Source: a virus (Duplodnaviria > Heunggongvirae > Uroviricota > Caudoviricetes). Taken from it: a stretch of 22,529 nucleotides of DNA. How positions within the stretch are numbered: the stretch's first letter is position 1; each line of letters starts with the position of its first letter. Positions 14,351-22,529 of this stretch are shown one piece after another. The stretch lies in IMG/VR virus record IMGVR_UViG_3300029417_000071. One strand, given 5' to 3'. The translations under genes were made by a program, and so were the position numbers. The notes beneath the pieces were generated by a model, which saw only the letters and a program-made list of their open reading frames with translations, had not been told where the DNA came from and made no database searches.

Positions 14351-14549
14351 TCACTTTTTTAAATCCAACGACAGACGGCTGGCATTTAAGTATTGTGAAA
14401 TATTATCAAATGTAATCATCATTGATTTACAAAAGATACATTTTGCCCCGAAAGGATTCATGTCAGAAACATCAAAAGATGATGTTCTATACTGGGAACC
14501 ATGACAACACGGGCATCTAAAGTGAATATGGTTTGTAATATTGTCTACC

Positions 14550-14762
14550 TCAAAGCGCCACTACATGAACAGCGGCAGGACCTTTAGGTCCGTTCTCAAT
14601 ACCAAATTCAACTTCCTGATTCTCAGTTAATGTTTTGAAATCGTTGCTCTGAATTGCTGAGAAATGGACAAACACATCTTTGCTGCCATCTTTCGGCGTG
14701 ATGAAACCAAAACCTTTTTCAGGGTTAAACCATTTCACTAAACCAGTCATTTTGTTAGACAT
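14550..14762 (-). CDS. cspI: cold shock protein CspI
   Basis: 70 aa [70 protein letters not shown]; canonical cold-shock domain with RNP motifs; long AT-rich 5' leader (14763-15125). Confidence 0.9.
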
Positions 14763-15125
14763 AATTATTACCTTTTGAAGAAATTAGCCCTTGGGCAGAA
14801 TGGTCCGAAAAAAAATATCAGAGAGAAAAACCAACAAGGAAATCTCAAGAGGTACAAATAATAAAATTATAACAATGACTGCTTCAGATAAATTTGTAAC
14901 AAACCAGAACACCATTAACGCATGATTAACCACCCATAGCAAGGATTACTTTTGTAAAGAAAAACACAGCAATGAAAGAATAGCTTTATTTATTAATAAT
15001 AACGTGTCATTCTGATTAAGACCTTTTATCTTACCCTTAAGATTTCAGGAATTTTGGCTCATGGAAGAGTCCTTTTTATTTAAATTTTACATTCCGCGAT
15101 GTAAATGTTCCGATTTAATATTACC

Positions 15126-17156: not shown

Positions 17157-17434
17157 ATTGTGGTGCTTTTTGTGGGAGTCATCCACTTACGCACTTTGTT
17201 TTGCCATGCCAGCAGTTAGCTTCTGCTGTAAAACTATTCATGCAGCAAACCTGCACTTCACCACAATGGTTAGCATACTTTTCCTGATTAAGATTTTGCC
17301 AAATATGCTAGCCATTGTTTCATGTATTGGACCTCCTTACTTTTTATTAAAGAGATCCAATATTCACTACTCTGTCCGTATCTCTACTCAGGCATCAGCC
17401 TTCTTCGTTATCGTATACAGACGAGCGATGAATT

Positions 17435-17650
17435 TTAATCAGTAATGATGACATTTGCTGCTGCAGGACCTTTAGCACCACTCTCTATAGAGAAGGTAAC
17501 CTTTTGACCTTCAAATAAGGTTCGATAATTATCATTCTGAATCGCAGAAAAATGCACAAACACATCTTTACTACCATCAACAGGAGAAATAAAGCCGAAA
17601 CCTTTATCAGCGTTAAACCATTTTACTAAACCAGTCATTTTATTTGACAT
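17435..17650 (-). CDS. cspB: cold shock protein CspB
   Basis: 71 aa [71 protein letters not shown]. Confidence 0.9.
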
Positions 17651-17950
17651 TCTACATTCCTTAACTTGAGCCTTTCGGCATAAATGGTTTGCATAACAGA
17701 AACGACTTCGTACTTAATTGGAGAGACTCAAAGAAGGAATAAGTGAATAACACCTGAAATGAGAACTGCTTTAGTAAACTACTTCGTATATCGTCTGTTC
17801 TTCAAACCGACGCAATCATTAACGCATAGTTGAACATATGAAGCAATGTTTATTTTAGACATCCAGCCATCTTCAACCCCATCAAAAAACTATAGCTTTC
17901 TTCAGGAACGTGTGTATAGTGCGCCAAGTTATCAGTATTAAGGAATTTTT

Positions 17951-20998: not shown

Positions 20999-21117
20999 CA
21001 GAATCCTTCCGGATAATTAGCTCTCCCCTTTAAGGGACCATCCCTCTTATCCCTGCGCGCTACTTAAGTATTTTTGATTCTATTCCGGCACCGTCCAGAT
21101 CTTCAAACGCGTTGAAA

Positions 21118-21146
21118 ATAAAAACAAAAACCCGCCGAAGCGGGTT
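21118..21146 (-). terminator. intrinsic terminator after hokD
   Basis: Minus strand reads CCCGCTTCGGCGGG followed by TTTTTGTTTTT. Confidence 0.6.
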
Positions 21147-21214
21147 AAGTGCGGGTGCGTTGAGGATGCCTGCCACATCAGAGGTGGCGAGGGATTTCTC
21201 CCTCGCCGGGTCTC

Positions 21215-21370
21215 TTACTCCTCAGGTTCGTAAGCTGTGAAGACAGCGACCTCCGTCTGGCCGGTTCGGATTCGTACCTCGCAGAGGTCTTTCCTCGTTA
21301 CCAGTGCCGTCACTATGACGGTTAAACAGATGACGATCAGGGCGATTAACATCGCCTTTTGCTGCTTCAT
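21215..21370 (-). CDS. hokD: Hok-family type I toxin HokD (RelF)
   Basis: Track ORF 21215..21427; Met20 at 21370 gives 51 aa MKQQKAMLIALIVICLTVIVTALVTRKDLCEVRIRTGQTEVAVFTAYEPEE; SD AAGGAG; followed by a hok-mRNA-like 3' stem-loop GGCGAGGGA tttc TCCCTCGCC (about 21186-21207). Confidence 0.85.
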   Translation of the reverse strand: MKQQKAMLIALIVICLTVIVTALVTRKDLCEVRIRTGQTEVAVFTAYEPEE

Positions 21371-22044
21371 AGCCTGCTTCTCCTTGCCTTTCGGCTCGTA
21401 AGAGGCTAACCTACATGTGTCTAGCATGAAATTGGCCTCAGATTAATGTTAAGCGTCTTGCAGGACGCGTAATGTTAACTGGGGCTTTTCTCTATCTGCC
21501 TTTGGTGTTCATGCCCGAGGCAGATAGCCTCAAGCACCCGCAGCCATTCTACTTAACTACCGTTACCTCGCCAATATGAAATCAGTCAGAAAGGCGATCC
21601 ATAAGAACAATAGCAAGACAATAAATCGCCATTACAGCCGTAATAGCCAGCGCACATTTGAGAACCAGCACCACAACCTCCTGTATTGGACGTAGACCAG
21701 TCCTGATGAATATGAGGCTGTCTCGTCAGTGATTCAATACAACTATTGGGTATAGTTTCTCTGATTTTTTCTGTGGAAATGGGGCACAACCACTAGTCAC
21801 CACCAGCACTTCTTTTAATACGCAAAGTCCGACACAAGCTAACCTTCTAGTCCGCTTTGAGCGAAAAACAGCCATAATTTAGTGCCACGTATATAATGAT
21901 AGAGCTATTCAAGCTAGCAATTCACATGTAAAAATTCAGAGGGTAGAAGCACATAGTTATAAATGTTGGCTCCATCGACAAATTGCGGTCTCAAGTACAT
22001 TTATTAATGTTGCCCCCGCATTAACAAATCATCAAGGTGACGAC

Positions 22045-22503
22045 ATGGACGATATTAATATCAGCCTCGACGAACTTAACACTATTGATTTATCCCCCTT
22101 AATCCAGAGTAAGCTGCCAGTTACCTGCTTTGATATCACAAAGTATCTTTCTAGCCTAGGTGATGGAAGAGCGGAGATAAGACTGCTAACCCATATTTGC
22201 GGTTTTCACTTTCGTCCCGAAAATCCACAGGTACCATTTGGTCCGTGCTTTCAAAGCAGCCAAGGTAGATCTGCAATTCCGGATGACATTAACGGGTTGT
22301 CGCTGGAGGTACTTTCTCAATTTTGCCCGACGATAGAGCTACCCGAACTTCAAGCTCGTATTGCTGATACACTTTGGGTTCGTAAAATTGGTGGAATCCG
22401 TTTTCCTTTGCTGGCAGTCCGTGCTTATTATGCGTCCAGTATAGCTATTATGACTGAACCGCCCCGGGAATCCTGGAGACTAAACTTCCTGAGAAAGAGG
22501 TAA
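22045..22503 (+). CDS. hypothetical protein (152 aa), first gene of an unknown plus-strand operon
   Basis: MDDINISLDELNTIDLSPLIQSKLPVTCFDITKYLSSLGDGRAEIRLL...; SD AAGGTG; preceded by an AT-rich promoter-like region; no family recognised. Confidence 0.55.
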   Translation: MDDINISLDELNTIDLSPLIQSKLPVTCFDITKYLSSLGDGRAEIRLLTHICGFHFRPENPQVPFGPCFQSSQGRSAIPDDINGLSLEVLSQFCPTIELPELQARIADTLWVRKIGGIRFPLLAVRAYYASSIAIMTEPPRESWRLNFLRKR

Positions 22504-22508
22504 ACAGG

Positions 22509-22529
22509 ATGACTAAAAATACTCGTTTT
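22509..22529 (+). CDS. 5' end of a downstream gene (MTKNTRF...), truncated by the window edge
   Basis: ATG at 22509 follows SD AAGAGG and lies 5 nt after the stop of the 152 aa gene, suggesting an operon. Confidence 0.3.

What the first reader, a model, noticed from the sequence alone, without database searches (positions are those of the whole stretch)
21118..21600. hokD toxin locus with hok-mRNA-like 3' structures and an in-frame upstream ATG
The 51 aa Hok toxin is intact with a good SD. Downstream are a perfect 9-bp stem-loop and an intrinsic terminator, resembling the 3' fold-back elements of hok mRNAs. An in-frame ATG at 21427 extends the ORF to 70 codons; in plasmid hok/sok the mok frame overlaps hok out of frame, so an in-frame extension is unusual. 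No sok-like antisense promoter or relBE upstream is evident. How this toxin is kept silent in the prophage is unclear.
Basis: partly seen in the sequence, partly recalled or inferred. Interest (0 to 1): 0.5.

Follow-up and report, generated by a model that had tools for sequence, protein, structure and literature searches.

The report
Intact prophage hok/mok/sok toxin–antitoxin locus
This is an ordinary, complete copy of the well-known hok/mok/sok RNA-controlled toxin–antitoxin module in a Qin-like prophage; the "unusual" in-frame upstream ATG is the normal mok start of this branch, and the "missing" antisense antitoxin gene is present.

Summary
On the minus strand there is a 51-aa Hok identical to K-12 HokD, a good SD, a perfect 9-bp stem-loop, an intrinsic terminator and an in-frame ATG at 21427. 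relBE is absent. The locus is a complete hok/mok/sok type I toxin–antitoxin module. Rfam's sok/hok-leader model matches at full length (116 bits, cutoff 59). A sok promoter (TTGCCT-17 nt-TAACCT) and a hairpin plus U-tail RNA lie antisense to the mok start. The mRNA 5' end (tac) pairs with a 3' element (fbi). A 3'-trimmed RNA is predicted to refold into tac/ucb and mok-SD/dcb stems. Covariation in 93 distinct copies supports the fold. The in-frame ATG is the mok start. RefSeq K-12 mokC/hokC and phage "MokW" records have the same in-frame layout, and so do 54 of 70 distinct leaders surveyed. K-12 hokD is the exception: it is cut about 15 nt upstream of hok and fused to relE. The locus is 100% identical in E. 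coli 118UI, present at 80% coverage or more in 2554 of 5426 complete genomes, and about 94% identical to the experimentally characterised hokW-sokW of prophage Sp5. It is already known and of low interest.

The parts
21546..21574 (-). hok promoter: -35 TTGGCG (21574-21569), 17-nt spacer, -10 TAGAAT (21551-21546)
   Evidence: Consensus scan, although the number of such sites in the region is not above chance. The -10 aligns with TATAAT of K-12 hokC. The assignment therefore rests on homology.
21121..21539 (-). Full-length hok mRNA (about 419 nt), from the 5' GGGUGCUUGAGG to the terminator U-run
   Evidence: Rfam RF01794 full-length hit 21539..21365, 116 bits against a gathering score of 59. MFE -175.1 kcal/mol, z = -7.8. 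Fold supported on 93 copies: 93.1% of cells paired against about 40% for slid controls. The ends are inferred and not mapped.
21528..21539 (-). tac (translational activator element), the mRNA 5' end
   Evidence: Pairs with 21165-21153 in the full-length MFE and with 21487-21481 in the 3'-trimmed RNA.
21481..21487 (-). ucb (upstream complementary box), AAGCCCC
   Evidence: Pairs with the mok SD in the full-length fold and with tac in the truncated fold.
21436..21439 (-). mok Shine-Dalgarno, GAGG, 8 nt upstream of the mok ATG
   Evidence: Sequence. (C/T)GAGG is conserved in all aligned copies. Sequestered by ucb in the full-length fold and by dcb in the truncated fold.
21215..21427 (-). mok ORF, 70 codons, in frame with hok and sharing its stop (MLDTCRLASYEPKGKEKQA + Hok)
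   Evidence: Its start projects exactly onto the K-12 mokC start. PHROG 251 'MokW-like host killing', E = 7.6e-33.
21402..21405 (-). dcb (downstream complementary box), core of GCCUC
   Evidence: Pairs with the mok SD in the predicted truncated fold.
21215..21370 (-). hok CDS, 51 aa, preceded by SD GGAG at 21383-21380
   Evidence: Identical to K-12 HokD. Pfam HOK_GEF 82.9 bits against a cutoff of 22. The hok SD is paired with 21226-21225 in both predicted folds.
21186..21207 (-). Perfect 9-bp stem-loop in the 3' UTR
   Evidence: Helices 19 and 20 are 98% paired, with compensatory changes.
21153..21165 (-). fbi (fold-back inhibitory element), CCUCAACGCACCC
   Evidence: 12 pairs with one bulge to tac. 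Helix 1 is 98.2% paired in 93 copies, with G-C changed to A-U in 5.
21121..21146 (-). Intrinsic terminator of the hok mRNA (stem 21146-21129 plus U-run)
21384..21412 (+). sok promoter: -35 TTGCCT (21384-21389), 17-nt spacer, -10 TAACCT (21407-21412)
   Evidence: Conserved in 93/93 copies with an invariant 17-nt spacer. It is the same segment that is replaced in the sokW promoter-less mutant, inferred from primers YO-421 and YO-422 (PMC8621323 Table 2). The K-12 hokD junction destroys the -35.
21419..21495 (+). Sok antisense RNA (about 77 nt): 5' tail complementary to the mok start, long hairpin, U-rich tail
   Evidence: Projection of RefSeq sokC and sokB. Fold -30.5 kcal/mol, z = -4.6. Helix 5 has 6 pairs with compensatory changes. 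The ends are inferred.

Best explanation
The interval is a complete hok/mok/sok type I toxin-antitoxin module carried by a Qin-like lambdoid prophage. It is the intact form of the locus that in E. coli K-12 survives only as the truncated hokD (relF) behind relBE.

Proposed mechanism, which is the canonical R1 hok/sok scheme:
1. A stable hok mRNA of about 419 nt is made from the minus strand.
2. Its 5' end (tac) pairs with a 3' element (fbi). In this closed form the mok SD is held by ucb and the hok SD is buried, so nothing is translated and Sok cannot bind.
3. Slow 3' trimming removes fbi. tac then pairs with ucb, and the mok start region forms a hairpin that is both translatable and the Sok target.
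4. While the prophage DNA is present, the short-lived Sok RNA binds the mok start region. Sok is transcribed from the + strand from about 21419. It blocks mok translation and triggers degradation of the duplex.
5. Hok synthesis depends on ribosomes reading through mok. Because mok is in frame here, those ribosomes also make a 70-aa extended form.
6. If Sok falls, Hok is made and depolarises the inner membrane.

Shown here: presence, order, conservation and covariation of every sequence and structure element, and near-identity to an experimentally validated relative. Inferred: transcript ends, processing, coupling and toxicity in this strain.
For: - Rfam RF01794 matches at full length, 116 bits against a cutoff of 59.
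- Pfam HOK_GEF scores 82.9 bits. PHROG 'MokW-like host killing' matches.
- The locus aligns element for element with the RefSeq-annotated K-12 hokC/mokC/sokC. The sokC, mokC start and hokC start project onto 21419-21495, 21427 and 21370.
- The full-length MFE shows tac/fbi and mok-SD/ucb pairing. The trimmed RNA shows tac/ucb and mok-SD/dcb pairing, as described for R1 (PMC9841398).
- Covariation on 93 distinct copies: 93.1% paired against about 40% for slid controls; 42 pairs with double changes against 22.8 +/- 2.6 in shuffles, 0/500 reaching the observed value.
- The sok promoter is conserved with an invariant spacer.
- K-12 hokD homology starts only at about 21386, with the relE 3' end upstream of that.
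- The locus is about 93.5% identical to hokW-sokW of Sp5/VT2-Sakai. That system was shown to be a functional type I TA dependent on RNase III and Hfq (PMC8621323).
- It is 100% identical in strain 118UI, where it is annotated hokD.
Against: - There are no expression data for this strain.
- The promoter scan finds no more sites than chance, so both promoters rest on homology.
- The 5' tac columns of the survey alignment were selected with a motif, so their invariance is partly by construction. The fbi side is independent.
- The tested structure was derived from the window sequence, which inflates the 'cells paired' measure relative to the slid controls.
- Chromosomal hok loci tested earlier did not mediate post-segregational killing (as cited in bioRxiv 10.1101/2025.08.07.668861), so intact architecture does not prove activity.
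- The host prophage carries an IS insertion nearby and may be defective.
Confidence: 0.9

Rival explanations
1. K-12-type hokD (relF). The toxin gene is an orphan third cistron of a relBE operon. It has no mok, sok or leader of its own, and it is silent because it lacks independent translation signals.
For: The Hok peptide and 3' UTR are essentially identical to K-12 hokD. RefSeq names the gene hokD.
Against: relB and relE are absent from the window. Upstream of about 21386 the window carries a full hok leader instead of the relE 3' end. Rfam matches that leader at full length. Only about 6 of 141 fetched loci have relE upstream.
Confidence: 0.01
2. The locus looks architecturally intact but is functionally inert. 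It would be a relic in a decaying cryptic prophage that no longer kills or stabilises anything. Its conservation would reflect recent spread rather than selection.
For: Earlier work found that chromosomal hokA, hokB and hokC loci did not mediate post-segregational killing (cited). K-12 hok loci are inactive (PMC1635323). An IS3-family element sits about 900 bp away in the neighbouring gene. Many copies are near-identical, which limits the power of the covariation test.
Against: No inactivating lesion is visible in any element. Compensatory changes maintain the helices out to Kluyvera and Photorhabdus copies. The close relative hokW-sokW is functional and assists phage release (PMC8621323). ECOR-strain hok loci are reported to be active.
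Confidence: 0.07
3. The 70-aa in-frame ORF is the real and only toxin gene, an N-terminally extended Hok, and the internal 51-aa start is an annotation artefact.
For: The ATG at 21427 has a conserved SD and is in frame in 54/70 distinct leaders. Some phage records annotate only the long ORF.
Against: 15 of 70 close relatives have the mok ATG shifted by +/-1 nt. That gives an out-of-frame ORF or a 19-codon ORF, yet they keep an identical or similar Hok with its own conserved SD and ATG. K-12 hokB/mokB is likewise offset by 58 nt. Codons 2-5 of the extension are hypervariable. HokW expressed from the 51-aa start alone is toxic (PMC8621323).
Confidence: 0.02

Closest known systems
hokW-sokW (with MokW) of Sakai prophage 5 / VT2-Sakai and other Stx2 phages
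   Same: About 93.5% DNA identity over the mRNA. Same 70-aa in-frame mok and 51-aa hok sharing a stop. Same sok -10 hexamer TAACCT. The published primers match the window almost base for base. Also carried on a prophage.
   Different: The Hok C-terminus differs (…VFVDYESEK against …VFTAYEPEE here). The Sok-target codons differ (MLNTC against MLDTC). The 3' terminator region diverges. It sits at another position in the phage genome, next to a YgiW/YdeI-family gene near the genome end, whereas here it lies between a DUF7380/DUF4209 gene and rem.
E. coli K-12 hokC/mokC/sokC (gef)
   Same: Same order of elements, same 57-nt in-frame mok-hok spacing, homologous tac, ucb, mok start and sok.
   Different: About 82% Hok identity. 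The Sok hairpin is 18 nt shorter. The K-12 copy has IS186 immediately downstream and its 3' region does not align with fbi.
E. coli K-12 hokD (relF) in the Qin prophage
   Same: Identical Hok peptide. The 3' UTR including fbi and the terminator is near-identical, with 1 mismatch in the stem-loop. Same downstream neighbours: rem, ydfU, ydfT, cspF, cspB.
   Different: K-12 lacks everything upstream of about 15 nt before the hok ATG: the promoter, tac, ucb, the mok start, the Sok coding region and the sok -35. relE abuts instead, and hokD is co-transcribed with relBE (PMC3598666).
hok/sok (parB) of plasmid R1
   Same: Same regulatory logic and the same named elements (tac, fbi, ucb, dcb, mok, Sok), as described in PMC9841398. 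Same Pfam and Rfam families.
   Different: By my recollection, R1 mok starts 58 nt upstream of hok and is out of frame. The R1 sequence was not fetched here; the K-12 hokB/mokB annotation shows that 58-nt layout. R1 is plasmid-borne. HokW, a close relative of this Hok, shares about 44% identity with R1 Hok (PMC8621323).

Membership tests
[quoted passage not shown] | Small hydrophobic Hok/Gef toxin peptide | tested here: met
   Pfam HOK_GEF 82.9 bits against a cutoff of 22, covering the full 42-position profile.
[quoted passage not shown] | mok reading frame with its own SD, starting upstream of hok and overlapping it | tested here: met
   ATG at 21427 with GAGG 8 nt upstream. It projects onto the K-12 mokC start. 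It is conserved at -56, -57 or -58 in 69/70 leaders.
[quoted passage not shown] | cis-encoded antisense Sok gene (promoter, 5' tail over the mok start, hairpin, U-tail) | tested here: met
   TTGCCT-17-TAACCT on the + strand is conserved in 93/93 copies. Hairpin fold z = -4.6. Coincides with the projection of annotated sokC and sokB. Transcription itself was not tested.
[quoted passage not shown] | Long-range 5'-3' pairing (tac/fbi) that closes the full-length mRNA | tested here: met
   12 bp with one bulge in the MFE. 98.2% paired across 93 copies, with one compensatory pair.
[quoted passage not shown] | Alternative tac/ucb and mok-SD/dcb pairings after 3' trimming | tested here: met
   Predicted fold of 21539-21170. 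This is a thermodynamic prediction only.
[quoted passage not shown] | Leader RNA matches the curated covariance model | tested here: met
   RF01794 positions 1-157 of 157, 116 bits against a gathering score of 59, E = 3.7e-26.
[quoted passage not shown] | 3' exonucleolytic processing, RNase III cleavage of the Sok-mRNA duplex, unstable Sok against stable mRNA, and killing when Sok is lost | not testable with these tools
   These need northern blots, RACE and genetics. They were shown for the close relative hokW-sokW (PMC8621323).
K-12-type hokD/relF (third gene of the relBEF operon) | relB-relE immediately upstream, and a hok leader replaced by the relE 3' end | tested here: not met
   No relB or relE match in the window. 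Homology to K-12 begins at about 21386.
K-12-type hokD/relF (third gene of the relBEF operon) | HokD peptide sequence | tested here: met
   51/51 identical.

The most novel reading that the evidence does not exclude
Two linked, untested readings remain open. First, the segment matching the Sok 5' tail (the mok start and its first codons, 21434-21413) may be under diversifying selection, so that several prophage-borne hok/sok copies in one cell are regulated orthogonally. Second, in the in-frame majority of this clade, the 70-aa Mok-Hok read-through product may be a functional proteoform of its own and not merely a by-product of translational coupling.
Probability: 0.2. Interest if true: 0.4.

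Novelty: already known. Interest (0 to 1): 0.12.

Why it matters
It matters little beyond correct annotation. The locus should be labelled hok/mok/sok (intact hokD-type), with the Sok RNA and the mok frame annotated. RefSeq annotates only 'hokD' at this locus in the records examined. It is a useful reminder that the K-12 reference hokD is the truncated exception. At least 2554 of 5426 complete E. coli genomes carry a copy covering 80% or more of the 601-nt query, which a K-12-type junction cannot reach. The survey made here could seed a small study on antitoxin specificity among co-resident prophages. It covers the mok frame polymorphism (spacing of 56, 57 or 58 nt) and the hypervariable Sok-target segment.

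Tried and rejected
- The consensus promoter and terminator scan gave no enrichment over shuffles. I used it only for coordinates and based both promoter calls on homology.
- I considered that the Rfam 'sok' hit on the minus strand meant Sok is encoded on the same strand as hok. I rejected this because the model ends at the hok AUG and aligns to the sense leader, so it models the hok 5' leader. The real antisense strand was placed by projecting the annotated sokC and sokB.
- I considered K-12-like relBEF organisation and rejected it.
- I considered the 70-aa ORF as the sole toxin gene and rejected it because of the frame polymorphism in close relatives.
- Pfam, NCBIfam and PHROG searches with the 30-aa upstream ORF found nothing.
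- NCBIfam Hok models matched the Hok peptide only below their curated cutoffs (48.5 bits against 73), so I relied on Pfam.
- I did not use structure prediction, fold search or the large protein databases. The family is unambiguous without them.

Full report
OBSERVATION. All features lie on the minus strand.
- The 51-aa ORF 21370..21215 reads MKQQKAMLIALIVICLTVIVTALVTRKDLCEVRIRTGQTEVAVFTAYEPEE. It is identical to K-12 HokD.
- It matches Pfam HOK_GEF at 82.9 bits, against a cutoff of 22.
- It is preceded by AAGGAG, 9 nt from the ATG.
- Downstream there is a perfect 9-bp stem-loop at 21207..21186 and a terminator at 21146..21129 followed by a T run.
- An ATG at 21427 is in frame and gives a 70-codon ORF.
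- relB and relE have no match anywhere in the window.
So the raw observations are correct.

- Rfam's RF01794 ('sok') matches 21539..21365 over all 157 model positions, at 116 bits against a gathering score of 59. The match is on the hok-sense strand and ends at the hok AUG, so the model describes the hok 5' leader.
- K-12 hokD aligns with the window only from about 21386 onward, which is 15 nt before the hok ATG. Upstream of that point K-12 has the relE 3' end, whereas the window has a complete leader.
- The leader aligns element by element with the RefSeq-annotated K-12 hokC/mokC/sokC locus.
- Projecting the annotated features places the mokC start at 21427, the hokC start at 21370, and sokC at 21419-21495 on the + strand.
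- On that strand there is a promoter: TTGCCT (21384-21389), 17 nt, TAACCT (21407-21412).
- The RNA from 21419 has a free 5' tail, a long hairpin and a U-rich tail (-30.5 kcal/mol, z = -4.6).
- In 93 distinct homologous copies the spacer is always 17 nt. The hexamers are TTGCCT or TTGACC, and mostly TAACCT or TAATCT.
- The K-12 hokD junction removes the sok -35 and everything beyond it.

RNA ARCHITECTURE.
- The RNA 21539-21121 folds at -175.1 kcal/mol (z = -7.8). Its first 12 nt (GGGUGCUUGAGG) pair with CCUCAACGCACCC at 21165-21153.
- In this full-length fold the mok SD (GAGG, 21439-21436) pairs with 21485-21481.
- If the RNA is cut at 21170, the 5' end pairs with AAGCCCC (21487-21481) instead. 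The mok SD then pairs with GCCUC (21405-21402), and the mok AUG sits in a hairpin.
- These are the tac/fbi, ucb and dcb interactions described for R1 hok mRNA (PMC9841398).
- The hok SD is paired in both forms. This fits a need for mok translation to open it.

CONSERVATION.
- I fetched 133 related loci plus reference records, and aligned 93 distinct mRNAs.
- With the window's MFE as the test structure, 93.1% of cells pair, against about 40% when partners are slid by 1-3 columns.
- 42 pairs change on both sides, against 22.8 +/- 2.6 in shuffles (0/500 reach the observed value).
- The tac/fbi helix is 98.2% paired, with G-C changed to A-U in five Kluyvera-type copies.
- The Sok hairpin has six pairs with compensatory changes.
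- Two caveats apply. The structure came from one of the aligned sequences. The 5' columns were pre-selected with a motif.

THE IN-FRAME ATG.
- RefSeq K-12 mokC (210 nt) and hokC (153 nt) share a stop codon, so they are in frame.
- VT2-Sakai and Stx2a_F422 annotate a 213-nt 'MokW-like' or 'host cell-killing modulation protein' ORF that shares its stop with the 156-nt hok.
- Among 70 distinct leaders, the mok ATG is 57 nt upstream of hok (in frame, same stop) in 54.
- It is 58 nt upstream (out of frame) in 9. The same 58-nt offset is annotated in K-12 hokB/mokB and in the 'Rac' phage record.
- It is 56 nt upstream in 6, giving a 19-codon ORF that ends about at the hok start.
- The in-frame state is therefore the norm of the hokC/hokD clade. 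The ±1-nt variants among near-identical loci argue that what matters is translation through the region, not the Mok peptide.

HOW COMMON AND HOW WELL KNOWN.
- The 601-nt query 21100-21700 is 100% identical in E. coli 118UI. There it lies in a Qin-like prophage in the order DUF4209 gene, hokD, rem, ydfU, ydfT, cspF, cspB.
- 4741 of 5426 complete genomes have a match, and 2554 have a match at 80% coverage or more.
- The locus is present in 110 phage records, annotated as MokW, HokD, gef or 'mok/hok'.
- hokW-sokW of prophage Sp5 is about 93.5% identical. Its published primers match the window almost exactly, including the segment mutated to inactivate the sokW promoter.
- hokW-sokW has been shown to be a type I TA whose antitoxin activity partly requires RNase III and Hfq. 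HokW is induced by mitomycin C in a RecA-dependent manner and helps release of phage progeny (PMC8621323).
- K-12 relF/hokD is co-transcribed with relBE (PMC3598666).
- K-12 hok loci are described as inactive, while those of ECOR strains are described as active (PMC1635323).

MECHANISM AND CONFIDENCE.
- I conclude with about 0.9 confidence that this is an intact hok/mok/sok module working by the canonical scheme.
- In that scheme the full-length mRNA is closed. Slow 3' processing produces an mRNA that is both Sok-sensitive and mok-translatable. Sok blocks mok, and through coupling it blocks hok. Loss of Sok leads to Hok synthesis and membrane damage.
- The elements, their arrangement, their conservation and the near-identity to a validated system are shown here.
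- Transcript ends, processing, coupling and activity in this strain are inferred.
- The main residual uncertainty is whether this chromosomal copy is active or a silent passenger. An IS3-family element interrupts the neighbouring gene at 22455.

VERDICT. This is already known and ordinary. The finding's 'unusual' points come from comparing with R1 and with the truncated K-12 hokD instead of with the hokC/hokW-type loci.

SIDE OBSERVATIONS.
- Among 67 copies encoding an identical HokD, variability peaks sharply at the segment matching the Sok 5' tail (21434-21413).
- Co-resident copies usually differ there at 3-8 of 17 nt.
- A small hydrophobic ORF just upstream of the hok promoter is conserved in a subset of loci.

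Noticed in passing
window 21582-21674 (-): A small hydrophobic ORF of 29-30 aa (M/VLVLKCALAITAVMAIYCLAIVLMDRLSD) with a strong SD (AGGAGG). Its stop lies 8 nt before the hok -35. It is kept open in about 22 fetched loci, including a divergent version (…LAMEGALAVIAVVGVYCLVVFLMDRLGN). It has no Pfam, NCBIfam or PHROG match and is not annotated in strain 118UI. It could be an unannotated small membrane protein.
   Followed up: partly
window 22455-22529 (+), and the gene starting at 22045 (+): Identity to strain 118UI stops at 22454. The last 75 nt are the end of a multi-copy IS3-family element whose transposase ORF begins MTKNTRF. It truncates a DUF7380/DUF4209 gene, leaving 152 aa here against a 1788-nt CDS in 118UI.
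   Followed up: partly
window 21413-21434 (-); alignment A3: Among 67 distinct mRNAs encoding an identical HokD, entropy peaks at the mok start and the segment matching the Sok 5' tail (0.59-0.81 bits per column, against 0.05 or less in the CDS). There are 35 distinct 17-mers among 70 leaders. Copies in the same genome differ at 3-8 of 17 positions, except one pair at 0/17. This fits selection for antitoxin specificity, but no phylogenetic null was tested.
   Followed up: partly
loci L006, L016, L017, L063, L073 and others against window 21427: The mok-hok spacing is polymorphic at 56, 57 or 58 nt among loci that are about 90-99% identical, so the mok frame relative to hok flips between close relatives. 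The 56-nt form gives a 19-codon ORF that ends about at the hok start.
   Followed up: yes
window 21227-21232 (-): TACGAA (the Tyr47 codon followed by GAA) is invariant in all 93 aligned copies. The UACG motif is the context reported for TadA A-to-I recoding (Tyr to Cys) of hok mRNAs, according to the introduction of bioRxiv 10.1101/2025.08.07.668861.
   Followed up: no
window 21365-21539 (-): Rfam RF01794, named 'sok antitoxin', matches the hok-sense strand and ends at the hok AUG. In practice it detects the hok leader rather than the antisense strand, so strand calls from this family are misleading.
   Followed up: yes
window 14523-14908 (-) and 17419-17811 (-): Two cspA-thermoregulator (RF01766) matches, at 112.8 and 158.8 bits. 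The second corresponds to one of the csp genes (cspB/cspF) annotated in the identical 118UI Qin-like prophage. The first lies outside the 118UI stretch fetched. The prophage also carries the rem, ydfU and ydfT (Q-like antiterminator) genes.
   Followed up: no
L023, L028 (genome contigs); H33 (phages): Very short contigs labelled Acinetobacter idrijaensis (275 bp) and Xanthomonas pisi (431 bp), and an 'Actinobacillus phage' record, carry E. coli-type hok at 96-100% identity. This is probably contamination or mislabelling in public data.
   Followed up: no
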